64,000 nucleotides of DNA, taken from positions 64,001 through 128,000 of IMG/VR virus record IMGVR_UViG_3300022843_000001. One strand, 5' to 3'. Origin of the DNA: a virus. Below are positions 7,227 to 54,871 of this stretch, piece by piece; the stretch's first letter is position 1; every line of letters starts with the position of its first letter. The notes beneath the pieces were generated by a model. The model had not been told where the DNA came from. It searched no databases and saw only the letters and a program-made list of their open reading frames with translations. The position numbers and the translations under genes are program-made.

Positions 7227-7643
7227 CTATTTAAAAAGAGTTTTAACATGTTTTCGGTGAATTCGGCACCCAATGAAGGCATTATAATAATCTTCTGGCC
7301 TAAGCAACACCTCAAGATCAAATTGCAGCTTTGCCTCCATATAGTTCATTTCGCCTTTAGTCATGCAGAGCTCGAGTATCTCTCGTTGGAATCTGTCTTG
7401 TCCAAATTCCTCAACAAGAGACTTTACTAACTCACTGCTTCCATAATACTTTTGCCAGTCAGTTTCGACAATCTTTTTTCGTTTGCGGGTTTTGCCTTTG
7501 AGGGGTGGCAATTTACGGATAGACATAAGAGTCTTCTTGCCGACATATTTCATACCATTTGTGGTATCTGTTATGCAGTATATAAAACCTTTCCATTCAC
7601 CAATATCAGCAGAGGTAAACTCTTTACCTTTATAAATCCACAT
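7227..7643 (-). CDS. GIY-YIG endonuclease (single domain)
   Basis: GFIYCIT...KYVGKK, WQKYYGSS, EAKLQF; start refined to MWIYK at 7643. Confidence 0.8.
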   Translation of the reverse strand: MWIYKGKEFTSADIGEWKGFIYCITDTTNGMKYVGKKTLMSIRKLPPLKGKTRKRKKIVETDWQKYYGSSELVKSLVEEFGQDRFQREILELCMTKGEMNYMEAKLQFDLEVLLRPEDYYNAFIGCRIHRKHVKTLFK

Positions 7644-7806
7644 TTTGAGGAATCCCTTTTTTGTGGTTATCCAGAATGCTGCAAGTCTGCATCTCACATT
7701 CCATGCCATCAATATGGGTACATCCATTTTCAAGATAGTAATCACAGGCCCATACTGGGTCGTTCGGGTGCAAAATTCTGCCTATGAACCCTTCATAATC
7801 AAACAT
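7630..7806 (-). CDS. Small Cys/His-rich protein (58 aa, not in the ORF track)
   Basis: MFDYEGFIGRILHPNDPVWACDYYLENGCTHIDGMECEMQTCSILDNHKKGIPQNVDL; AGGA upstream; below a late promoter. Confidence 0.65.
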   Translation of the reverse strand: MFDYEGFIGRILHPNDPVWACDYYLENGCTHIDGMECEMQTCSILDNHKKGIPQNVDL

Positions 7807-7830
7807 AAAAATATTTCCTAATCAAACAAT

Positions 7831-7869
7831 TATTTATATGTGTGGCCAAGGAAGACCACACATATAAAT
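7831..7869 (-). promoter_or_regulatory. Hairpin after nrdA-C overlapping a late promoter
   Basis: 14-bp arms ATTTATATGTGTGG/CCACACATATAAAT (7832-7869); TATAAATA at 7831-7838. Confidence 0.7.
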
Positions 7870-7873
7870 TATA

Positions 7874-8899
7874 TCAGCCCTCGCATGCTTCACAAGAGCC
7901 ACTTGATGCTTTTACCCCCGATTCAGATCGTATATAATACAAAGATTTTATGAAAGGATCTTTGAATGCCATTTCATGTATTTTTGAAATTACTTCTTCT
8001 TTCTCGTCAGCACTAAAAAATAAGTTAATAGATTGTGCCTGATCGATATGTCTTTGACGCGCCGATGCCAATCGAATAATCGATTCTTGGTTGATTTCAA
8101 ACGCCGTCTTGAAAACTTCTTTCTGGTGATCATCAAGCCATTCAACATCCTGAACTGAACCGTTATCATCTATAATAGCATTTATAGTCTTCGGATTAAA
8201 AACACCTTTCTCTTTCATAACTGCTATGAGTACCGGATTGATTCTGTCAACTTCGCCAGCACTAGTTCTTTGCACGTATGCATTTTTGTATATAGGTTCA
8301 ATTCCTTGAGATACAGAGCCACATAAAATTGCCGAGGACAAATTAGGGGCAATTGCCATGCGGTGAGTGTTACGCAAACCGTAACCAACGCACCATTCCG
8401 GTTCACCTAGGGTTTCTGCTAACCAACGGCTAGCACGCTCTGAAGCTGTTGCCAGTTGTTTAAAAATTGAGTTGTTGATCATATGCGCTTCCATACTTTC
8501 AAAAGCAATGTTTTTCTGTTGTAAATAAGTATGAAAACCTAATGTACCTAAACCTAACGCTCTACTCTTTTCTGTGAAGCGAACTGCCTTTTCTAATCCA
8601 CGAATCTTTTTGCCTTCTTGGATAAATTCTTCGGCCACGCAGTCAAGAAAAACGGTTGCGTCAAATATAACTTCGTCTGGGTCTTTCATATTATCATATT
8701 GAGATAGGTTGATTGACGAAAGAACACAAGTAAAAGTAACATCATCAAAGCCTTCTCCTGTATCACTAGAAGTTGCATTCAATGTAATTTCAGTACAATT
8801 GTGTACTAATATATCATTTGCAAAGAAGTTATGATTATTCTCTACTGTAAGATCAAACACCGCTTCTTTATTATCTAAATATTCTATTGTTAAACTCAT
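7874..8899 (-). CDS. nrdA: Ribonucleotide reductase alpha, C-terminal half, preceded by a 34-aa IntC
   Basis: MSLTIEY...VFDLTV...HNFFANDILVHN followed by CTEI. Also LGLGTLG, AIAPN, DQAQS, KSLYY. Confidence 0.92.
   Translation of the reverse strand: MSLTIEYLDNKEAVFDLTVENNHNFFANDILVHNCTEITLNATSSDTGEGFDDVTFTCVLSSINLSQYDNMKDPDEVIFDATVFLDCVAEEFIQEGKKIRGLEKAVRFTEKSRALGLGTLGFHTYLQQKNIAFESMEAHMINNSIFKQLATASERASRWLAETLGEPEWCVGYGLRNTHRMAIAPNLSSAILCGSVSQGIEPIYKNAYVQRTSAGEVDRINPVLIAVMKEKGVFNPKTINAIIDDNGSVQDVEWLDDHQKEVFKTAFEINQESIIRLASARQRHIDQAQSINLFFSADEKEEVISKIHEMAFKDPFIKSLYYIRSESGVKASSGSCEACEG
8798..8899 (-). mobile_element. Split intein, C-fragment (IntC)
   Basis: Block F (VFDLTVENNHNFFAN) and block G (ILVHN), with Cys at +1. 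Confidence 0.92.
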
Positions 8900-9654
8900 A
8901 TTTTCTTATTCCTATGATTATTGCCGTCAAGCAAGGTTAAATCTGTTATTTTAAATGTTTCTATTAGCAACGTTTGTATATTTTCGTTCCATACCGGTTC
9001 TCTATATTTTCCTTTCAAACTCTTAGGTAGCGGTTGACCATAGACTTCGACAAAGTATCTTTTAGTCATGGCCATACTCCATCTTCCATATTTTTTAAAT
9101 ATTATTTTACAGGCCTCGAGTATATCTTCATTTGATATACCAGTAAATCTTGGGTTTTTTTCACCAGTGACAGAAGCACCAGTTTTTAATTTCCATTCAT
9201 CCGATCTTTTCATTCCTACATGAAAAAACACCCATTTACCAGATAGTACATGTGGATGATCTTTTTTAACTCGACCAATTCGAACTCCAGTAATAGAATC
9301 TTTTACAATTAAAGTTCCGGTGTGTCGTTTCGAAACTTCTGCTGCAATGATCTTGCGAGCTGCAGAATACGCTCTAGATGATAATCTTTTTCCCTTTGAC
9401 ACAACTCTACCCATATTGATCAAAGCCTGGTTTGCTTTATATCTGCCCTGCCCTGTTGCTAATTTAGCGAGCAATACATGAGCAATCCAATGTTCTTTTT
9501 GTGTCAGAAGTATCATATTAAAACTTTCATCTGTACCGCCAAATGATCTTGGTAGTATGTGATGATTTTCGTATTTAAAATCGCGATCTTTTTTAGATCG
9601 ACCTAGGTTTCGTCTGCTTTCTATTAAATTATTGTACAAGTTCAGATAGTTCAT
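8896..9654 (-). mobile_element. Free-standing HNH homing endonuclease inside fractured nrdA
   Basis: YENHHILPRSFGG...NMILLT.KEHWIAH; stop overlaps the IntC start (ATGA). Confidence 0.88.
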
Positions 9655-9658
9655 TTTT

Positions 9659-9693
9659 AATCCTGTTTAGTACTATTTATACTAAACAGGATT
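9659..9693 (-). promoter_or_regulatory. Stem-loop carrying a late promoter and sequestering the endonuclease RBS
   Basis: 14-bp perfect arms AATCCTGTTTAGTA/TACTAAACAGGATT; TATAAATA at 9674-9681 across the loop; AGGA in the 3' arm. Confidence 0.85.
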
Positions 9694-9723
9694 TCCAAAC
9701 ATAAAGATGTTAATGAATAGAGA

Positions 9724-10863
9724 TTACCCTATTACAAGTTCGTCATCTTCAAGCAATTCTTTCGCCATAACATATCCACGATTTTTTGTAAATATTTTAT
9801 GATCTGGAGTACATTTAATAGATTTTCCAGTTTCATCATCCGTGATTTTCATAATAGTAGCGTTAGGGTTTGTTTCCGCACCATCAGTAATTGTTTCCCA
9901 ATTGCCCAATTTATTCTCAACATCATACGACCAGATTTTCCAATCATCGAGATTATTGTTATAATGATTTTCAATGAAATGTTGCAAGGTACAAGATTTA
10001 ACACCAGAAACATCTCCTTTAACTGTTATAATAGTATCTCCAGTCATACATAAATTTGATGCATATACTTGCAGACCGCGATCCTTGTACATTGCTGGGC
10101 TTTGTCTGTTTACTTTATCAACAAAGAAGAAATATCCCTTACCTGTCAACATTTTAATCTTCAATGCTTTCTGATATCGGGCAACTGCATCTTCCTCACC
10201 TTTGTCTAAACGTTCGATAAAATCGTCACTTATATTCCAACCAACATTCACATCGTCAGGCATTGTTTCTACGTGCTGACACATCTCCCAAAAATCACCG
10301 CTTTCGATAGGAATATATCCTGCCCATGAACCCCGTCTAGTACTTCCTTGAGAAACGTCTCGAGACATCTGCACAAAGTCCTTGAATACAGGTACAACAC
10401 CACTTGCGGCGCCACCACCTTTGATATGCGTACCTCGTTCACGAATAGCGCCAAGATACGAACTTGTACCAAAACCGTTCTTTGAAAGGAGAGCACCTTC
10501 TTTCTGGGCTTCATAGAAATTATACACCGAATCACCAACGTAACTTCCAGAACACGATACAGGCATACCACGAGTCGTTCCCATATTTGCCATTACTGGT
10601 GTACTTGGAGCAAGAAAACCATTCCACATCAAATCGAAGAATTTAGTATTCCATTCTTCGCTCGATTCGCCCATGTGCTTCGAGGCGGTTTTTGCGATAC
10701 GTTCAAACGTCGACCGAACATCCGGTTCAGATTCCGTTTGATATTTTTCCTTAAACATTTGCCACCCAGGAGTGGTGTAGTAATCGGGAATTCTGCCAGA
10801 CGCCTGTAACTTCTTACGTTCCCTGCCCAGCTCTTTATAAATTGATACGTGTTCTTCTACCAT
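9724..10863 (-). CDS. nrdA: Ribonucleotide reductase alpha, N-terminal half, ending in a 108-aa IntN
   Basis: PSTPV, GMPVSC, SQGSTRRG, ASNL followed by CMTGDT. Start refined to MVEEH (TAATG overlap with nrdB); no ATP-cone visible. Confidence 0.92.
   Translation of the reverse strand: MVEEHVSIYKELGRERKKLQASGRIPDYYTTPGWQMFKEKYQTESEPDVRSTFERIAKTASKHMGESSEEWNTKFFDLMWNGFLAPSTPVMANMGTTRGMPVSCSGSYVGDSVYNFYEAQKEGALLSKNGFGTSSYLGAIRERGTHIKGGGAASGVVPVFKDFVQMSRDVSQGSTRRGSWAGYIPIESGDFWEMCQHVETMPDDVNVGWNISDDFIERLDKGEEDAVARYQKALKIKMLTGKGYFFFVDKVNRQSPAMYKDRGLQVYASNLCMTGDTIITVKGDVSGVKSCTLQHFIENHYNNNLDDWKIWSYDVENKLGNWETITDGAETNPNATIMKITDDETGKSIKCTPDHKIFTKNRGYVMAKELLEDDELVIG
9727..10050 (-). mobile_element. 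Split intein, N-fragment (IntN)
   Basis: Cys1 block A (CMTGDTII), block B (CTPDHKIFT), acidic end AKELLEDDELVIG then stop. Confidence 0.92.
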
Positions 10864-11864
10864 TATACTTGTCCCCATATGAAGTTAGTTTCTTTCCAGT
10901 CTCTGTTATATTCTGATCCAGTTGATATAAAGAAGTCATGAAGCTTTGATGAATTGATATTACGATAAAACCATTTCTCTATAGGATTGTATGTAGGTTT
11001 ATATAGCTTTTGATAACCAAGTTGTTCAAGACACAAATCAATTCTTGACTGTACGAACATGTCTAGCTGATGTTCTGTAATGCCACGAATGTTTCCTTTC
11101 TCAAAAATCATCTTGATAATTTCTTTTTCATGCTCGTAAGTTTTTGTAGCTACCTTAATAATATCCTTCTCTAAAGTTTCAAGTTCTTTCTTGGTTAAAT
11201 TGGCTTCTCTCATTAAGGTCTTGAACAACCAAGCATCTGCCATTGCGTGTAGATTTTCATCCTTAACTGAGAAGTTAATACCAGCAATTAGGTTTGTCAG
11301 TTTGTTTTTGCCTTCGGCTTGAAAGTGTTTTAGAAAGGCGAAGTTTGCATATAACACAGCACCTTCAACAAAGGAAAACGCGCCAAGACTTCTTAACAAA
11401 TCCATGTTGTTGTCACTTGGTGACAACAACACATCTCCAATCCACGATATACGATCACTCAATACTTTGTTTTCTTTGTAAGAGTTGTAAAATTCGTTGG
11501 TTGCAAGACCAAGAATTTCGTTTATCTTTGAATAGAAAGGTGCATGAACATTTATTTCCACATAGGCGAACATATTTGCCATTCGCTGAATGTCTGGCCG
11601 AGGAAATGATTTTGCAACACGAGCTGACCAATATTCATTGCCAACATTTAGTTCATATTCTGTGAACAGTTGTAGTACAGTTGTAACGCCGTGTAGTTCT
11701 GCTTCGTCGAGGTTGTTCTTGAGATCATGAAGATCTTTCTCCATCGATATCTCGCGTTCTGTCCATAATATATCTTGTTGTTCTTCCGAAAATGCTATTG
11801 CTTCAGGATAGTCAAACGTATATTCGGATTTTTTGGTTCTTATTCTTGGTAATTCCTCGCTCAT
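10863..11864 (-). CDS. nrdB: Ribonucleotide reductase beta subunit
   Basis: WTEREI, EINVHAPFYS, VEGAVLY..F, KDENLH di-iron motifs. Confidence 0.92.
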   Translation of the reverse strand: MSEELPRIRTKKSEYTFDYPEAIAFSEEQQDILWTEREISMEKDLHDLKNNLDEAELHGVTTVLQLFTEYELNVGNEYWSARVAKSFPRPDIQRMANMFAYVEINVHAPFYSKINEILGLATNEFYNSYKENKVLSDRISWIGDVLLSPSDNNMDLLRSLGAFSFVEGAVLYANFAFLKHFQAEGKNKLTNLIAGINFSVKDENLHAMADAWLFKTLMREANLTKKELETLEKDIIKVATKTYEHEKEIIKMIFEKGNIRGITEHQLDMFVQSRIDLCLEQLGYQKLYKPTYNPIEKWFYRNINSSKLHDFFISTGSEYNRDWKETNFIWGQV

Positions 11865-11905: not shown

Positions 11906-11934
11906 ATTATACATCATTCAGGTGCACTTGTCAA
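11906..11934 (-). promoter_or_regulatory. Sigma70-type promoter for nrdB/nrdA
   Basis: TTGACA-17-TATAAT. Confidence 0.85.
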
Positions 11935-48545: not shown

Positions 48546-48902
48546 CTAATGTAAGGTCAACCCTTCGGGATTGCCCTCCTGCGGTTCTTCTTCCTGCAAG
48601 GCATCCTTTAATTCCTGTCCTACGATTTTACTTAATGCATCCACGTAAAAGTTACACATTTCTGCATTAGGCTCTGCTATAACAATTCCAGTCTTCATAA
48701 TTGTCACGGTGTTGTTCTCTGCAAAGTTCATGAAGTCCTTCATATAATAAGTATACTTATCTTCTTCTGAATTGCTTTTAACTACTTCAAGACTGTCTTG
48801 CATTTCAATATAGACATCATTTTGGAATGTAACATTACCTACAATAAACTCTCCAGTGGCAAGTTTTATATACAATAATTGTACTTCATTTATAGCTCTC
48901 AT
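48546..48902 (-). CDS. Conserved hypothetical protein downstream of uvsW
   Basis: IKLATGEFIVG N-terminus; overlaps the uvsW stop. Confidence 0.6.
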   Translation of the reverse strand: MRAINEVQLLYIKLATGEFIVGNVTFQNDVYIEMQDSLEVVKSNSEEDKYTYYMKDFMNFAENNTVTIMKTGIVIAEPNAEMCNFYVDALSKIVGQELKDALQEEEPQEGNPEGLTLH

Positions 48903-49813
48903 TTTAAAGGTACCTCATAAACTTTATAATCAAATTCTTGTTGACTGTATATCTTAATTCTTTCTGCTGCATGATTTAATGCATAATTTTTATGTGATTT
49001 CCAATGCAAGTCGTCTGCAATGTCATACACGGTTGTAATTCTTCCATCATCAGATTTTCTCAAACCACGTCCTATCGATTGTAAAATCTTAATTTGGCTC
49101 TTCGACGGAGATGCAAAGACAATATTGTGTAGGTTCCTAATATTTATACCTGTAGAAAATACACCTAAACTAGCAACAATAATCGCATTCTTTTGTGTTT
49201 CAGTTAGTTTCCGTACATACTCTCTGGTATCGGCATCAGTCTTACCAGACACATAAAAGATCTTTCTTCTTTCGTGAGCATGCTTTTCTATAAGAGCATG
49301 TAGTGGTATACCATGCTTTTCCACAAACTGAAACAAGATTAAAGTATTACCATCTAGATCAAGAGCAAGATTTTTGATAAAGTTGTTACGTTTTTCGTGC
49401 CGAACAATAAAATCAATCTCGTCAGGATACTTCATCTTCTTAACTAACTTACATTCTTCATCTCTAAACTTCAACAATAGAATGTTAATATTCAGGCCAG
49501 CGAGAGTTCCATCATCAATAAGTTTCTTGGTTGTTGTCACGTAATGTGCTTTACCAAAGTGACCTTCAAGCTGCAATCTATGGCTCTTTGCAGAGCTGTC
49601 TTTGATAGTACCGGTAGTGCCAAATCTATATGCTGCTTCTGATAAGTTGGACATAATAGAGGTCAGAGACTTTGCTGTAGCGAGGTGCGCTTCATCCACT
49701 ACGACACAACCATACCTTTCAAACCAACTCTTATTGAGCTTGTATATAGACTGCCATGTTGATATTACAATTCTGGGTGTTGTAGTTTTTCTAGTTATTT
49801 TTTTTATTTTCAT
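48899..49813 (-). CDS. uvsW: UvsW helicase, C-terminal half
   Basis: ISTWQS, DEAH, GTTGT, STGINI, QSIGRGLR; basic MKIKKITRK head. Confidence 0.92.
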   Translation of the reverse strand: MKIKKITRKTTTPRIVISTWQSIYKLNKSWFERYGCVVVDEAHLATAKSLTSIMSNLSEAAYRFGTTGTIKDSSAKSHRLQLEGHFGKAHYVTTTKKLIDDGTLAGLNINILLLKFRDEECKLVKKMKYPDEIDFIVRHEKRNNFIKNLALDLDGNTLILFQFVEKHGIPLHALIEKHAHERRKIFYVSGKTDADTREYVRKLTETQKNAIIVASLGVFSTGINIRNLHNIVFASPSKSQIKILQSIGRGLRKSDDGRITTVYDIADDLHWKSHKNYALNHAAERIKIYSQQEFDYKVYEVPLK

Positions 49814-50639
49814 GATATGATCTTATATGTTTAGGGATGCAATGTGCCGCCATAGCTCTATCACAATATTCACATTTGATTTTGGGTTTTGATCGACCCT
49901 TCGCTTTAGTTGTAGTACCCTTATTGTGACCTTGTTGGATCCAATCATCTCCGGGCTTTTCGTTTGCTTGAGTACGTTCATAGGTTACAGTATTATACCA
50001 ACACTTTCTACCTTTCATATCAGGCATAGAATCAAGTTTTTTCTGAACAAAAACAGGATTTTGCATAGGATTGTTAGTATTCCACACATTCGTTTTATTT
50101 TTAGTACGAGTTTCTATAGACTTCTTATGAGTTTCCTCATCATTGAAGGGACTGTGCTCTTTCATAAACTCGCGTTGATTTTCTCTTTTCCCCGAATTCC
50201 ATTCAGCAACCATCATCTCAGATTGAGTGATGGCGTCCCTTCGCCCATCTTTGTAACTAGCTTTCATATCTTCGGACATCATGGCTGCAAGGTCTCTTTT
50301 TAGACTTTCGTATACCCTATTGGTTACACGACTTTCTGTGTTATTTGATTTCATAGACATTGCTGTATATGCCCTTAACATAGAATATCGACCTTTGTCC
50401 GTTATAAATTTAGGCAACAGCACGTGTGCTAAATAATGTTCCCTTGCTGTTAATCTTACCATATTATTTTTTGCATTACAACCACCAAGAGATTTAGGTA
50501 ATATGTGATGGTTTTCGGTGTAATTGTCTCTATCTACAGGATTAGCTAACCGGTTAGCTATTATATTACAATACCAATTATAATATTTGTTTATGTTCTT
50601 GCCCTTGTAGCCATTTATCGTCAATTTCGTGAGATTCAT
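49791..50639 (-). mobile_element. Free-standing HNH homing endonuclease splitting uvsW
   Basis: TENHHILPKSLGG...NMVRLTAREHYLAH; C-terminal CEYC...H...H; late promoter at 50676-50683 inside the upstream CDS. Confidence 0.88.
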
Positions 50640-51402
50640 TTAGTTCGTCTGCTCTTATTTTACATTTCTTATTGTTATTTATAATATCTATAAACGCATT
50701 GCCTAAAAATCTATACAATTTACCATCAATCGTCTCTATTTCTATGTATACTTTTGTGGGTGGTACCTTATCTTGCCCCGAGTATATAATATGGCAAAGA
50801 TCATCAGACATAAACCCGTCGTCAAATTCTGAATAATCCGCGAAGTCACTATTCATTTGTTTTACAAGTGAGGTTGTTGGCACTACAATTAGTATATCTT
50901 TTTCGTTGTTGTCAAGATAATAACGAAGTATAGAATATATAATAAAAGATTTGCCAGACGCAGTTGGAGATATAACCAAAGAGTTTCTATTCTCTAGGCA
51001 ATGCTCTACCGCGGCTAATTGATAGTCGTGATGCTTTATAGGTGCGCCGCGAGAAGTAAAAGTGCAGTCATTGATCCATTCCATATCATAAGAGTGTAGA
51101 GTCCCAGGCATGCCATAATAGTTATTGTGCTCTACTTCGATCTTGTAATCTCGAGTTTTGGCAAATTCTTCAACATAAGTATAGAGCCCAATAGGCAGCT
51201 GTCTATCTCTCGAGTTAAAAATGCGAATGTAGCCGTCCCATTGCTTGTTCTTATATGAGGGCATGAACTGATATCCCTCAGGTTGAAAAGCAAAGAAGTC
51301 AGTTAACTCATTGAGTATAGAAGGCTCGGCATCAACATGCAAAAACGCTTGGTTCTTCTTTTTTAAGGTTATTGTATTCCATTCTTTCATATCACATCCC
51401 AC
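50578..51402 (-). CDS. uvsW: UvsW helicase, N-terminal half with a 62-aa Hint-like tail
   Basis: WDGYIRIF, YQLAAV, SPTASGKS, VPTTSLV.QM, CHIIYSGQDK, then a foreign tail. Confidence 0.92.
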   Translation of the reverse strand: MGCDMKEWNTITLKKKNQAFLHVDAEPSILNELTDFFAFQPEGYQFMPSYKNKQWDGYIRIFNSRDRQLPIGLYTYVEEFAKTRDYKIEVEHNNYYGMPGTLHSYDMEWINDCTFTSRGAPIKHHDYQLAAVEHCLENRNSLVISPTASGKSFIIYSILRYYLDNNEKDILIVVPTTSLVKQMNSDFADYSEFDDGFMSDDLCHIIYSGQDKVPPTKVYIEIETIDGKLYRFLGNAFIDIINNNKKCKIRADELNESHEIDDKWLQGQEHKQIL

Positions 51403-52507: not shown

Positions 52508-53854
52508 CTAAGCAGTAGAATCAATGATACCATTAACTTTAACAATTCTGTAATAAGTGTTTGTACGAACCGCACCTATTTCATTAGTACTGTCAACGAA
52601 TGGGTTTGCTACCATACCATAGCGAGTTTTGAAACCAATTTTAGGTTGGAATGTATTTTCACCAACAGCACGAACCATTGTTAAAGGAACATATGGGCAG
52701 TAGAAAAGACCTGCGTCATAAGCATTAGAACCTTTATAACCAATTGACATATAATCAACAGTGGCATATGGGTCAAGGATAACTTTCATGTTTCCGCCAA
52801 TTGTTCCTACAACAGTAGGACCAGTAACGTCATCACCAACAGTTAGACCATTCAAAGGTGAAGAATAATCAAGAAGACCAGCAGCATTCAATGAAGCAGC
52901 GATATCAGATGAAACGATAACGAAGTTACCTTTTCCACGGCGAGTATCGATTGCAATTTTGTTTGCTTCACGTTGGATGTGCAACATAAGCATCTTGATT
53001 TTTTCAATTGCCCAACGACCGTCAGCATCTGTAGAAAGGTCGTAAATACCAGCAGTTGTTAAACCAGCTTGTTGAGCACCAAGAACAGCACGTGAGTTAA
53101 CAGTACGAATTACTTCGCGGTTAACTTCAGCAAGAATTTCACCAGAAAGGATATTAGCCAATTCTGATTCAGCATCAAGACCATGTACAGCTTTAAGATC
53201 TTGTGCAAGTTCCATTGTGTATTCAGCTTTAAGAGCACGTGACTTTGCAGTTACAGTAGTCTTATCGATACTGAAAGACATTTCAGCAAAATGACCTTCG
53301 TTTGATTCACCGCTACCTAGAGCTTCAGAAGCAGCAGTAGTCATTGCTTGACCAACGCCGAAAGCGTCATTTACTGTGTCAGCAGGAGATGAGTCAGTTC
53401 CACCAAGTGAACTTGAATCAGCACCCATTGCAGAACCGGCACCGGTTAAATCACCAGCAGCGTTGTTTCCAGAGAAACCAGAGTTAGCTTCGCCAAATAA
53501 TGCTTCAGCACCACTTTGAGAAGTGTAACGAGATTTCATTGCAAAGATAAGTCCAGTAGGACCAGACATTGGCTGAACGCCAGCAATATCATATGCAATC
53601 AAATTAGGCATTGCGCGACGAACAAGAGAGATCAGAATTGGATCCCAGTTTGCCATTGGGCTTGCGCCACCAGCAGTAGCATTCGCAGCTTCGTTAAGAT
53701 AAGTGGATTGACCACGTTCTTCCATAAGAGCACGTTCAGTGTTCTCAAGAGCAACAGCAGTTACCGCGCGTTTTTGAGCATTACCAATAGTTTCAACGCC
53801 ATCAGCGTCGAGCATTGGTGCCCATTTTTCTAAAATTTCTTTTTGGTTTAGCAT
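52508..53854 (-). CDS. gp23: Major capsid protein
   Basis: DPILISLVRRAMPNLIAYDIAGVQPMSGPTGLIFAM, KSRALKAEYTMELAQDL, FQPKIGFKTRYG. Confidence 0.98.
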   Translation of the reverse strand: MLNQKEILEKWAPMLDADGVETIGNAQKRAVTAVALENTERALMEERGQSTYLNEAANATAGGASPMANWDPILISLVRRAMPNLIAYDIAGVQPMSGPTGLIFAMKSRYTSQSGAEALFGEANSGFSGNNAAGDLTGAGSAMGADSSSLGGTDSSPADTVNDAFGVGQAMTTAASEALGSGESNEGHFAEMSFSIDKTTVTAKSRALKAEYTMELAQDLKAVHGLDAESELANILSGEILAEVNREVIRTVNSRAVLGAQQAGLTTAGIYDLSTDADGRWAIEKIKMLMLHIQREANKIAIDTRRGKGNFVIVSSDIAASLNAAGLLDYSSPLNGLTVGDDVTGPTVVGTIGGNMKVILDPYATVDYMSIGYKGSNAYDAGLFYCPYVPLTMVRAVGENTFQPKIGFKTRYGMVANPFVDSTNEIGAVRTNTYYRIVKVNGIIDSTA

Positions 53855-53872
53855 TTTGTTAATAACTCCGAG

Positions 53873-54871
53873 TTATTTATTATTTAACGCAGCAATATAC
53901 TGTGTCATTGAATTAGAAAGTGACTTAGTAACAGGGCCAGCTTCGTTTAATTCATCTTCATCAGCAGTAACTACAGTGGTTTTAAAGTAAGATTCTTTTA
54001 AAGTGGTTACTTTTGTAGTAAAAGTTTCAGCACTTTCAAAATCAATATCTTCGACTAAAGTTTTTAGTTTTTCAATTTCCGATTCAGACAACCCAATTGA
54101 AGACTCACGAATGATTTGTTGCTTAACAAGTTTCGCATTTTCTTCTTTAAGTTTGATGTTACGCGCAACTTCTGTATTATAATCTTCTTCAAGACCTGCA
54201 GCTTTATTGCTAAGTTCATCAACAAGATCAACCTTGCTTTCTGGAACTTCGACATAATGCTCATCGAATACAGTTTTCAGTGAACTAATAAATGATTCCG
54301 CGATTTCGGTACGAATGCCTTTTTCTACTTCGATTGTGTTATCTTCCATCCATGTTTCAACAACATAGTTTAAATAACCATCAACCTTTTCGACTAATGC
54401 TGATTGTATAGCATCAACTTCTTCGTTTAATTTTTCAGCATATTCTTCTTCTAAACGGTCAACAGTTTCATTGATTTTAGATGTAAGAGCTGCTTCAAAT
54501 ATAACAGAAGCCTTGGCACGAAATGCTTCAGATAAAGTAGATTCGCCTTCAACTAATGCGTCAAGATCTTTTTTGAATACTTCTTCTTTCTTCAATTTCT
54601 TGGCTTTTAGTTTTGCAGCAGACGCCTTAACAGCAGCGGCAGTAGCAGCGGCAGCTTCTTCGCCGTCATCTTCTACAGATTCGTCAACGTCATCTTCGTC
54701 TTCTTCGTCTTCTTCACCTTCCTTGAAAGGTTTAGCTTTTTTCTTTCCGAAGTTGTCTAGATTTTCATCTTGCTCATCTTCGTCTTCTTCTTCTTCGGTT
54801 TCCTCATCAAACTCTTCAATGTCTTCAACGAGTTCATCTTGGAGGTCATGCGGGTTTTTGTACTTTTTCAT
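53873..54871 (-). CDS. gp22: Prohead core scaffold protein
   Basis: KASVIFEAA, VDGYLNYVVETWM, EHYVEVPE; late promoter at 54991-54998. Confidence 0.92.
   Translation of the reverse strand: MKKYKNPHDLQDELVEDIEEFDEETEEEEDEDEQDENLDNFGKKKAKPFKEGEEDEEDEDDVDESVEDDGEEAAAATAAAVKASAAKLKAKKLKKEEVFKKDLDALVEGESTLSEAFRAKASVIFEAALTSKINETVDRLEEEYAEKLNEEVDAIQSALVEKVDGYLNYVVETWMEDNTIEVEKGIRTEIAESFISSLKTVFDEHYVEVPESKVDLVDELSNKAAGLEEDYNTEVARNIKLKEENAKLVKQQIIRESSIGLSESEIEKLKTLVEDIDFESAETFTTKVTTLKESYFKTTVVTADEDELNEAGPVTKSLSNSMTQYIAALNNK

What the first reader, a model, noticed from the sequence alone, without database searches (positions are those of the whole stretch)
7874..10863. Fractured nrdA with an intact natural split intein and an intervening HNH gene
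Seen: nrdA-N ends ASNL|CMTGDT...CTPDHKIFTKNRGYVMAKELLEDDELVIG* (108-aa IntN). A 252-aa HNH ORF follows, then a gene starting with a 34-aa IntC (...HNFFANDILVHN|CTEI). Trans-splicing would restore SNL-CTEI. Established: this motif holds the RNR catalytic thiyl cysteine, here the +1 nucleophile, so enzyme activity depends on splicing. Fractured genes with split inteins (gp41-1, NrdJ-1) are known from marine metagenomes, and from memory both ends resemble NrdJ-1. Unusual here: a class I NrdA host, an HNH partner, and an IntC that is net acidic (6 D/E, 1 K) without the usual basic N-terminal strand. That suggests a different assembly mode and a possibly orthogonal biotechnology intein.
Basis: partly seen in the sequence, partly recalled or inferred. 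Interest (0 to 1): 0.85.

Follow-up and report, generated by a model that had tools for sequence, protein, structure and literature searches.

The report
Split-intein nrdA with HNH homing gene
A 199-kb T4-like phage carries its ribonucleotide reductase large-subunit gene in two pieces that a split intein should stitch together, with a selfish HNH nuclease gene in between; it is a genuine, intact example of the "fractured gene" arrangement known since 2009, not a new kind of element.

Summary
On the minus strand lie nrdB, nrdA-N plus a 108-aa IntN, a 69-nt spacer, a 252-aa HNH gene, and a 34-aa IntC plus nrdA-C.

A sister phage in IMG/VR has an uninterrupted 583-aa nrdA. The window differs from it by one clean 1253-bp insertion, just before the thiyl-radical Cys codon. 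The joined exteins are collinear with that allele (91% identity). Both halves are under strong purifying selection (dN/dS 0.03-0.04, like nrdB).

All splicing residues are present. A complex model supports docking of IntN with IntC (0.70 against 0.01 for the best control). The nuclease gene has the hairpin-plus-late-promoter control described for such cassettes.

The claimed oddities mostly fall away:
- Class I NrdA split inteins at this site are known (NrdA-1 to -7), and NrdA-2 splices experimentally.
- Acidic IntC fragments are known (gp41-1) and common among relatives. One IntN/IntC residue pair flips polarity across the family.
- An HNH partner is not among the 2009 types, but it recurs in IMG/VR and in the cultured Yersinia phage vB_YenM_TG1.

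This scan has noted many fractured nrdA genes on other DNA. Verdict: real and most likely functional, a new member of a known kind.

The parts
11906..11934 (-). Consensus sigma-70-type promoter (TTGACA-17-TATAAT) upstream of nrdB; likely early promoter of the nrdB / nrdA-N / HEG / nrdA-C unit
   Evidence: 12 of 12 match. A pattern match only; function is inferred.
10863..11864 (-). nrdB, class I RNR small subunit, 333 aa; its stop overlaps the nrdA-N start
   Evidence: Pfam PF00268 at 6.5e-46; ORF.
10051..10878 (-). nrdA N-extein (276 aa from the ATG at 10878, or 271 aa from the ATG at 10863); no ATP cone; ends ...YASNL
   Evidence: PF00317 and the first part of PF02867. Collinear with the contiguous NrdA of L023; dN/dS 0.041.
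9724..10050 (-). IntN, 108 aa plus stop: Cys1 and block B T81-P-D-H84
   Evidence: PF14890 positions 18-93. NrdJ-1 intein PDB 8UBS at E 2.5e-13. C1, T81 and H84 invariant in 13 relatives.
9659..9693 (-). 15-bp RNA hairpin in the 69-nt spacer. The loop holds TATAAATA (9674-9681, T4-type late-promoter motif) and the 3' arm holds the HEG Shine-Dalgarno AGGA (9661-9664)
   Evidence: sequence.: -23.1 kcal/mol, z -5.3, none of 200 shuffles as stable.: motif enriched, 23 against 8.3 expected. The same design with different stem sequences occurs in L029, L102-L104 and Yersinia phage TG1.
8896..9654 (-). Free-standing Mob-like HNH homing endonuclease gene, 252 aa; its stop overlaps the IntC start (ATGA)
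   Evidence: phrog_655 'homing endonuclease' at 1.9e-28. tblastn hits to annotated Mob-like HNH genes of T4-like phages. E29, H31, H32, N46, H55 and H59 invariant in 14 relatives. The AF2 model has strand-strand-helix at residues 29-65. No Pfam HNH hit at threshold.
8798..8899 (-). IntC, 34 aa, net charge -5; block F/G ...NHNFFANDILVHN
   Evidence: PF14890 positions 126-155. gp41-1, DnaB and NrdJ-1 inteins in the PDB. H33, N34 and C+1 invariant.
7874..8797 (-). nrdA C-extein (307 aa plus stop), starting with the thiyl-radical Cys in CTEI. Contains LYY (radical-transfer tyrosines) and the C-terminal CEAC pair
   Evidence: PF02867 at 3.1e-52; sequence; dN/dS 0.026 against L023.
7832..7869 (-). 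16-bp hairpin just after the nrdA-C stop (terminator-like); it contains another TATAAATA (7831-7838), upstream of the segE-like GIY-YIG gene
   Evidence: Function inferred.

Best explanation
This is a functional 'fractured' class I nrdA in a complete 199-kb T4-like phage.

How it most likely works:
- nrdB, nrdA-N-IntN, the endonuclease gene and IntC-nrdA-C are read from one unit.
- The two NrdA polypeptides are made separately.
- IntN and IntC dock by the usual antiparallel strand zipper. IntN strand I66-T70 lies against IntC strand L3-L8, with a K68-E6 ion pair.
- Canonical class 1 protein trans-splicing follows (Cys1, T81-x-x-H84, H33-N34, Cys+1). It releases a 583-aa NrdA with the native SNL-CTEI active-site loop, whose Cys is the thiyl-radical residue.
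- The gene between the halves is a Mob-like HNH homing endonuclease. It sits at the canonical endonuclease-insertion point of the intein.
- In read-through early transcripts its ribosome-binding site is locked in a hairpin. A T4-type late promoter in the hairpin loop would give late transcripts that lack the 5' arm, so the nuclease would be made only late.
- The nuclease drives spread of the cassette into alleles that lack it in co-infecting phages.

Shown here: anatomy, exact insertion boundaries, conservation of the catalytic residues, purifying selection, the hairpin, and the family context.

Inferred: splicing itself, timing of expression, nuclease activity and its target.
For: 1. Empty site. 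Sister-phage contigs L022-L024 share the gene order and carry a contiguous 583-aa nrdA. The window differs by one 1253-bp insertion at 8798-10050. The joined exteins align without a gap at 91.3% identity, and the junction reads SNL|CTEI in both.
2. Selection. dN/dS is 0.041 for the N-extein and 0.026 for the C-extein, against 0.034 for nrdB.
3. Intein integrity. C1, T81, H84, H33, N34 and C+1 are invariant in 13 related pairs. IntN matches the NrdJ-1 intein structure at E 2.5e-13.
4. Docking. The complex model scores 0.70 against 0.01 for the best of 3 controls. That mark was reached by 58 of 80 solved complexes and 2 of 110 mismatched pairs. Runs agree in at least 92% of contacts and partner pLDDT is at least 73. 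Solved split-intein complexes exist, so this pass may only reflect likeness to them.
5. Covariation. The IntN K68 and IntC E6 columns carry opposite charges in 12 of 13 pairs, with polarity flipped in 6. The model puts these two residues in contact.
6. Control element. The hairpin folds at -23.1 kcal/mol (z -5.3), with TATAAATA in the loop and AGGA in the 3' arm. The same design with different stem sequences occurs in L029, L102-L104 and Yersinia phage TG1. It matches the description in PMC2677866.
7. Nuclease family. phrog_655 at 1.9e-28, an invariant HNH motif, and a strand-strand-helix element in the model.
8. Precedent. NrdA-2, a homologous class I NrdA split intein at the same SNL/C site, splices in cis and in trans.
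Against:
- Both fragments are net acidic overall (IntN -8, IntC -5). Global electrostatics would therefore not drive association, and only the local pair is complementary.
- Each intein half scores below Pfam's gathering cut-off (27.8 and 30.2 bits against 35.8). This is expected for half domains.
- No Pfam HNH model reaches threshold (HNH_5 at E 0.17). Whole-model fold searches gave no significant HNH match.
- The spacer is 69 nt, longer than the 27-51 nt reported for the 2009 loci.
- The Shine-Dalgarno sequence for nrdA-C lies about 12 nt from its ATG, which is a poor spacing.
Confidence: 0.84

Rival explanations
1. The intein halves act only as a non-covalent clasp. The two NrdA pieces would assemble without splicing, as in Aeromonas phage Aeh1 NrdA-a/NrdA-b.
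For: Split NrdA can be active without splicing in Aeh1 (PMC3045599, cited through).
Against: Every splicing residue is retained here and invariant in relatives. The break lies one residue before the thiyl Cys in the active-site finger loop, so an unexcised 142-residue intein would sit inside the active site. The homologous NrdA-2 splices.
Confidence: 0.06
2. One reading: the acidic IntC signals a different assembly mode, which would make this an unusual intein that is orthogonal by mechanism.
For: IntC is net -5 and lacks the basic N-terminal strand of NrdJ-1, NrdA-2 and Npu DnaE. IntN is also net acidic (-8), so the fragments are not globally complementary.
Against: gp41-1 and gp41-8 already show a negative IntC with a positive IntN strand. 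The best full-length PDB match of this IntC is gp41-1. Seven of 13 related pairs are acidic. The K68/E6 pair covaries with flipped polarity, and the model shows the ordinary strand pairing. Orthogonality to NrdJ-1 remains plausible, but that would be by a known principle.
Confidence: 0.08
3. The locus is a decaying pseudogene or an assembly or frameshift artefact.
For: The genome is metagenome-derived and read-level checks could not be run.
Against: Identical ORFs occur on 14-18 contigs from several assemblers. dN/dS is 0.03-0.04 in both halves. There are clean in-frame intein boundaries, and the same architecture occurs in many independent contigs and in a cultured phage.
Confidence: 0.02

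Closest known systems
Fractured genes of Dassa, London, Stoddard, Schueler-Furman and Pietrokovski 2009 (PMC2677866), loci NrdA-1 to NrdA-7, especially NrdA-2
   Same: The order is the same: host-N plus IntN, a short spacer with a hairpin and TATAAATA, a free-standing homing endonuclease gene, then IntC plus host-C, all on one strand. The host is class I NrdA and the insertion point is the same, directly before the thiyl-radical Cys (SNL|C). The intein is split at the canonical endonuclease-insertion site. By eye, NrdA-2 is homologous: CLTGD..., CTPDHKVYT.NRGYV...FFANNILVHN.
   Different: The nuclease here is a Mob-like HNH; the 2009 loci had only GIY-YIG or Vsr-like genes. NrdA-2 has a basic IntC and the ...VLEI... 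IntN strand, whereas this one has the swapped polarity (...IMKIT... with LTIEYL). The host NrdA lacks an ATP cone. The phage is not cyanophage-like; its nearest NrdA (58% identity) is in T5-like Vibrio phages.
NrdJ-1 split intein (PDB 8UBS; used in PMC7090010)
   Same: It is the closest solved relative of IntN: E 2.5e-13, with 30 of 71 aligned positions identical. The IntC tail HNFFANDILVHN is identical.
   Different: NrdJ-1 sits in class II NrdJ, one residue further downstream, with Ser as the +1 residue. Its IntC N-terminal strand is basic, and its IntN has Glu where this intein has K68.
gp41-1 split intein (PDB 6QAZ; bioRxiv 10.1101/546465)
   Same: IntC is acidic and faces a Lys-bearing IntN strand. 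It is the best end-to-end PDB match of this IntC (residues 3-34).
   Different: The host is a gp41 helicase with Ser at +1. Its IntN is not detectably similar by phmmer.
Yersinia phage vB_YenM_TG1 (NC_028820) nrdA locus
   Same: A cultured T4-like phage with nrdA-N plus IntN at SNL|C, a hairpin with TATAAATA and the SD in its 3' arm, a Mob-like HNH gene (E 1e-16 to this one), and an acidic-type IntC followed by C+1.
   Different: IntN is only 37% identical. The NrdA N piece is longer (532 aa against 384 aa here). The record names only RNR pieces and a homing endonuclease, and I found no paper describing it as a split intein.
Aeromonas phage Aeh1 nrdA-a / mobE / nrdA-b (PMC3045599)
   Same: nrdA of a T4-like phage is split by a Mob-type HNH gene. 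As summarised in PMC2677866, a hairpin and late promoter limit translation of that nuclease to late infection.
   Different: Aeh1 has no intein. Its halves assemble non-covalently, and the split lies at a different place.

Membership tests
Class 1 split intein (HINT domain, trans-splicing) | N-terminal nucleophile Cys1 directly after the N-extein | tested here: met
   SNL|CMTGDT. The column is invariant in 13 relatives.
Class 1 split intein (HINT domain, trans-splicing) | Block B T-x-x-H | tested here: met
   T81-P-D-H84; T and H are invariant.
Class 1 split intein (HINT domain, trans-splicing) | Block G penultimate His, terminal Asn, and a +1 Cys/Ser/Thr | tested here: met
   ...LVHN|CTEI; H33, N34 and C35 are invariant.
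Class 1 split intein (HINT domain, trans-splicing) | The two halves lie on separate polypeptides and associate | tested here: met
   They are separate ORFs with a stop and a start. The complex model scores 0.70 against 0.01 for the best control (58 of 80 solved complexes and 2 of 110 mismatched pairs reached the mark). Contact agreement is at least 92% and partner pLDDT at least 73. This is a model only and may reflect likeness to solved inteins.
Class 1 split intein (HINT domain, trans-splicing) | Demonstrated trans-splicing | not testable with these tools
   Needs co-expression and detection of the spliced product.
Fractured gene (Dassa et al. 2009) | Host-N plus IntN, non-coding spacer, free-standing endonuclease gene, IntC plus host-C, all on one strand | tested here: met
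   The spacer is 69 nt, against 27-51 nt in the paper.
Fractured gene (Dassa et al. 2009) | Hairpin upstream of the endonuclease start, often holding the late-promoter motif TATAAATA and hiding the RBS | tested here: met
Fractured gene (Dassa et al. 2009) | Endonuclease of GIY-YIG or Vsr-like type (the types described; not a defining feature) | tested here: not met
   The gene here is a Mob-like HNH. The paper itself predicted that HNH genes could do this.
HNH (beta-beta-alpha-metal) homing endonuclease, Mob-like | HNH motif residues | tested here: met
   H31-H32, N46, H55 and H59 are invariant in 14 sequences. Local match to Cas8-HNH chains.
HNH (beta-beta-alpha-metal) homing endonuclease, Mob-like | Profile match to the family | tested here: inconclusive
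   PHROG 655 at 1.9e-28 and PHROG 12434 'HNH endonuclease' at 1.3e-6. Pfam HNH_5 reaches only E 0.17, below its cut-off.
HNH (beta-beta-alpha-metal) homing endonuclease, Mob-like | beta-beta-alpha fold | tested here: inconclusive
   The AF2 model (pLDDT 77) has strands 29-32 and 47-50 and helix 52-65. Foldseek found nothing at E <= 0.001, and the VIA search was dominated by the C-terminal helical domain.
HNH (beta-beta-alpha-metal) homing endonuclease, Mob-like | Site-specific DNA cleavage and homing | not testable with these tools
   Needs in vitro cleavage assays or phage crosses.
Class I ribonucleotide reductase alpha subunit (NrdA) | RNR all-alpha and barrel domains with the active-site N-x-C-x-E loop, the YY pair and a C-terminal Cys pair | tested here: met
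   PF00317 and PF02867 are split over the two ORFs. SNL-CTEI, LYY and CEAC are in the sequence.
Class I ribonucleotide reductase alpha subunit (NrdA) | Partner NrdB radical-generating subunit | tested here: met
   Adjacent, overlapping nrdB; PF00268 at 6.5e-46.

The most novel reading that the evidence does not exclude
This Mob-like HNH lineage may be a specialist invader of intein-coding DNA. It would home into the endonuclease-insertion point of mini-inteins and so be an agent that turns contiguous inteins into split ones, in several host genes.

Evidence that leaves this open:
- Its closest IMG/VR relatives sit between IntN and IntC halves (8 of the top 80 Mob-like loci, including 5 of the 6 best-scoring).
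- Homologous inteins exist as a contiguous mini-intein (L012), with the gene, with only its 3' stump (L025-L028), and with almost no gap (L013).
- A paralog in the same genome splits uvsW.

A linked possibility: the K68/E6 polarity flip makes this intein naturally orthogonal to NrdJ-1 and NrdA-2, and to the second split intein of the same phage.
Probability: 0.3. Interest if true: 0.55.

Novelty: new member of a known kind. Interest (0 to 1): 0.3.

Why it matters
As biology it confirms the 2009 fractured-gene model rather than extending it. Its value lies in the unusually complete comparative series around this locus:
- an empty allele in a sister phage;
- a contiguous mini-intein homolog;
- alleles with HNH or GIY-YIG genes;
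- an allele that keeps only the last 63 codons of the HNH gene;
- alleles with almost no gap.

Together these document each step of the proposed gain-and-loss cycle within one intein family. The locus also adds the HNH class to the nucleases seen in such cassettes.

For protein engineering, the intein has an NrdJ-1-like backbone with the opposite charge polarity at a covarying inter-fragment pair. That makes it a reasonable candidate for an extra orthogonal split intein. Many such candidates exist and none of this has been tested.

Tried and rejected
- Megablast of the locus against 50,697 phage records found no match. The phage has no close cultured relative; its gp43 is at most 50% identical to any.
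That HEG relatives and NrdA-N relatives lie on the same contigs (P0002/P0072, P0004/P0068, P0016/P0075, P0020/P0073) rests only on equal contig lengths. I relied on IMG/VR loci instead.
- A single-protein scan of IMG/VR with the HEG found nothing. The alignment-based scan did.
- Foldseek against the PDB with the whole HEG model gave no match at E <= 0.001; the weak top rows include Cas9, Cascade-HNH and Cap5 chains. VIA-wide matched only the C-terminal helical part to TetR-like helix-turn-helix domains at Z about 5, which is not discriminating.
- Rfam at E <= 1 gave nothing in 7600-11000, so there is no group I intron.
- Identity in 60-nt windows around the insertion site is neither raised nor lowered (0.78-0.83 against 0.81 overall). 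There is no visible co-conversion tract.
- No supplementary files of Dassa 2009 are held.
- No paper in the held library describes an HNH gene inside a split-intein fractured gene, or the TG1 locus. This is absence in that library only.
Full report
**1. What is there**

The window is bases 64001-128000 of a 198,785-bp IMG/VR virus record with terminal repeats, judged complete. It encodes T4-type gp23, gp20, gp18, gp17, gp41 and gp43. It has no close cultured relative: megablast finds nothing, and gp43 is at most 50% identical to any phage record.

On the minus strand, one search gives these genes in order:
- nrdB, 10863-11864;
- nrdA-N, 9724-10878 (384 aa, or 379 aa from the ATG at 10863, which overlaps the nrdB stop);
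- a 252-aa ORF, 8896-9654;
- nrdA-C, 7874-8899 (341 aa).

Pfam places the RNR all-alpha domain and the first 130 positions of the barrel in the first nrdA ORF. The rest of the barrel is in the second. Positions 18-93 and 126-155 of the intein splicing domain lie at the C-end of the first ORF and the N-end of the second. IntC has 6 D/E and 1 K.

**2. It is real and not an artefact**

Each of the three proteins is found letter for letter on 14-18 contigs from JGI, Logan, ENA and MetaClust assemblies. IMG/VR holds a sister phage (L022-L024) with the same neighbouring genes and an uninterrupted 583-aa nrdA.

blastn against L023 gives two blocks, window 12867-10047 and 8798-6203, which abut in L023. 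The window therefore carries one 1253-bp insertion, 8798-10050, exactly between the Leu codon and the Cys codon of SNL-CTEI. The exteins joined in silico are the same length as the sister allele and 91.3% identical, without a gap. dN/dS is 0.041 for the N-extein, 0.026 for the C-extein and 0.034 for the unsplit nrdB. Both halves are thus kept under the same strong constraint as the partner gene.

**3. The intein**

Cys1, T81-x-x-H84, H33-N34 and Cys+1 are present and invariant in 13 related IntN/IntC pairs taken from IMG/VR.

IntN matches the solved NrdJ-1 intein (8UBS) at E 2.5e-13, with 30 of 71 aligned positions identical. The last twelve IntC residues equal those of NrdJ-1. Over its whole length, IntC matches gp41-1 best (residues 3-34).

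A complex model built with these alignments supports binding. The score is 0.70 against 0.01 for the best of three controls. That mark was reached by 58 of 80 solved complexes and 2 of 110 mismatched pairs. Runs agree in at least 92% of contacts and partner pLDDT is at least 73. Because split-intein complexes are solved, this shows likeness rather than proof. The most confident contacts place IntN I66-T70 against IntC L3-L8, including K68 with E6.

**4. The acidic IntC is not a new mode**

Three lines of evidence bear on this.
- Dassa et al. 2009 already reported gp41-1 and gp41-8 with a positive IntN strand and a negative IntC. The gp41-1 structure paper describes the same reversal relative to Npu DnaE.
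- Among the 13 related pairs, seven IntCs are acidic (-5 to -9, plus one at -1) and six are neutral to basic.
- In the alignment, the IntN column of K68 and the IntC column of E6 read K/R with E in six pairs, N with E in one, and E with K/R in six. No pair has like charges. Yersinia phage TG1 (K with E) and the contiguous homolog L012 (R with E) fit the pattern. In the alignment, NrdJ-1 has Glu opposite K68.

The sequences are related, so these counts are not independent events. Even so, the pattern is the one expected for a conserved inter-fragment ion pair whose polarity has flipped.

One caveat remains. IntN as a whole is also acidic (-8), so only local complementarity is seen.

**5. The gene between the halves**

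The evidence for a Mob-like HNH homing endonuclease is as follows.
- It has no Pfam hit at threshold.
- It matches PHROG 655 'homing endonuclease' at 1.9e-28.
- It matches annotated Mob-like HNH genes of T4-like phages at 27-31% identity.
- Fourteen relatives keep E29, H31, H32, N46, H55 and H59.
- The AF2 model (pLDDT 77) has the strand-strand-helix element at residues 29-65.
- Fold searches were inconclusive.

The 69-nt spacer upstream of the gene folds into a 15-bp hairpin (9659-9693; -23.1 kcal/mol; z -5.3). Its loop holds TATAAATA and its 3' arm holds the AGGA that lies 6 nt before the ATG. TATAAATA occurs 23 times in the window against 8.3 expected, 19 of them on the coding strand. That fits T4-type late promoters.

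The same hairpin, motif and SD design, with quite different stem sequences, stands before the HNH genes of L029, L102/L103, L104 and Yersinia phage TG1. It is the control element that Dassa et al. describe, citing Edgell's work on Aeh1 mobE: the RBS is hidden in read-through transcripts and free in late transcripts. The timing here is inference.

The HEG stop overlaps the nrdA-C start (ATGA). A perfect sigma-70-type promoter precedes nrdB and a hairpin follows nrdA-C.

**6. Family context**

A search of 5.8 billion proteins found 62 NrdA-N-plus-IntN proteins related to this one. IMG/VR holds every stage of the cycle proposed in 2009 for this same intein family:
- empty alleles (L022-L024);
- a contiguous mini-intein with an 8-residue linker where the split lies (L012);
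- split alleles with GIY-YIG genes (L007-L011);
- split alleles with Mob-like HNH genes (L029/L030, L102-L105, L126/L129);
- split alleles whose 170-nt gap is the last 63 codons of this very HNH family (L025-L028; 70% identity to P0070, E 4e-27);
- alleles with gaps of 5-36 nt (L013, L015, L031).

Eight of the 80 best Mob-like HNH loci in IMG/VR are flanked by IntN and IntC. These include five of the six best-scoring loci.

A cultured T4-like phage, Yersinia phage vB_YenM_TG1 (NC_028820), has the same layout with a related HNH gene (E 1e-16). Its record does not call it an intein.

**7. Comparison with what is known**

The 2009 paper lists seven fractured NrdA loci at this insertion point. They had GIY-YIG or Vsr-like genes only, and the paper predicted that HNH genes could do the same.

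Pinto et al. 2020 showed that NrdA-2 (class I, junction SNL/CNE) splices in cis at 75-98%. It splices in trans and does not cross-react with NrdJ-1, gp41-1 and others. By eye, its sequence is homologous to this intein but of the basic-IntC type.

The class I host and the acidic IntC are therefore not unusual. The HNH partner is the one feature not covered by the papers I could search, yet it is common in sequence databases. This scan has itself noted fractured nrdA genes in many other genomes, including one with a MobE-type HNH gene in a coliphage. I did not check that case, but it led me to the search that found TG1.

**8. Verdict**

This is a well-preserved and almost certainly functional fractured nrdA, and a new member of a known kind. 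What remains open:
- splicing itself;
- the nuclease's target (empty nrdA, a mini-intein allele, or a split allele without the gene);
- whether the polarity flip gives useful orthogonality.

Noticed in passing
L003 236-1168 and 1489-1869 (G000:C1 about 52861-54494, outside the window): The same phage has a second split intein. A P-loop protein is cut inside its Walker A motif (...GGAG then C...; ...LVHN then SGKGF). The gap is 320 nt with no endonuclease ORF. Its IntC N-terminal strand is basic, the opposite of the nrdA IntC.
   Followed up: partly
window 48899-51402 (-): A helicase-like gene pair (earlier notes call it uvsW; not checked here) is split by a 282-aa ORF. Its first 108 residues are 40% identical to the nrdA HNH gene (E 2e-21), while its C-terminal part differs. 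It is a paralogous Mob-like nuclease with another DNA-binding end.
   Followed up: partly
L025 3326-3514 (also L026-L028): The 170-nt gap between the IntN and IntC genes of a related fractured nrdA encodes the last 63 residues of this HNH family and nothing else. The nuclease gene has lost all but its last 63 codons, while the split intein survives.
   Followed up: yes
L012 2-1498: A contiguous (cis) mini-intein homolog sits at the same nrdA site. An 8-residue linker (DNGNVVSG) lies where the split and the nuclease gene lie in the window.
   Followed up: yes
L031 2321-5412; L015 3314-4321: In L031, nrdA is in three pieces joined by two split inteins, with a 109-aa Vsr-like-looking ORF in the second gap. 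In L015/L016 a middle piece begins with an IntC and ends with an IntN.
   Followed up: no
L106 977-3169; L127 168-2344: HNH genes are flanked by ORFs that match only the inner half of IntN (profile positions 49-109) and an IntC match that stops five positions short of the profile's end (positions 2/3-33 of 38). These may be non-splicing docking remnants.
   Followed up: no
window 7227-7869 (-): A segE-like GIY-YIG gene (PF19835 at 6.5e-38) lies directly downstream of nrdA-C, and also in the sister phage. It is preceded by a 16-bp hairpin that holds another TATAAATA.
   Followed up: no
L182 1708-5355 (Yersinia phage vB_YenM_TG1, NC_028820): A cultured T4-like phage carries a split-intein fractured nrdA with a Mob-like HNH gene and the same hairpin and late-promoter element. 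It is annotated only as two RNR genes and a homing endonuclease.
   Followed up: yes
L017 3032-6415; L014 3011-6753: NrdJ-like (class II) hosts carry inteins of the same family. The L017 IntC is nearly identical to the window's and is inserted before the Cys (TNP then C), not after it as in NrdJ-1. ORFs of 351-362 aa of unknown type lie between the halves.
   Followed up: no
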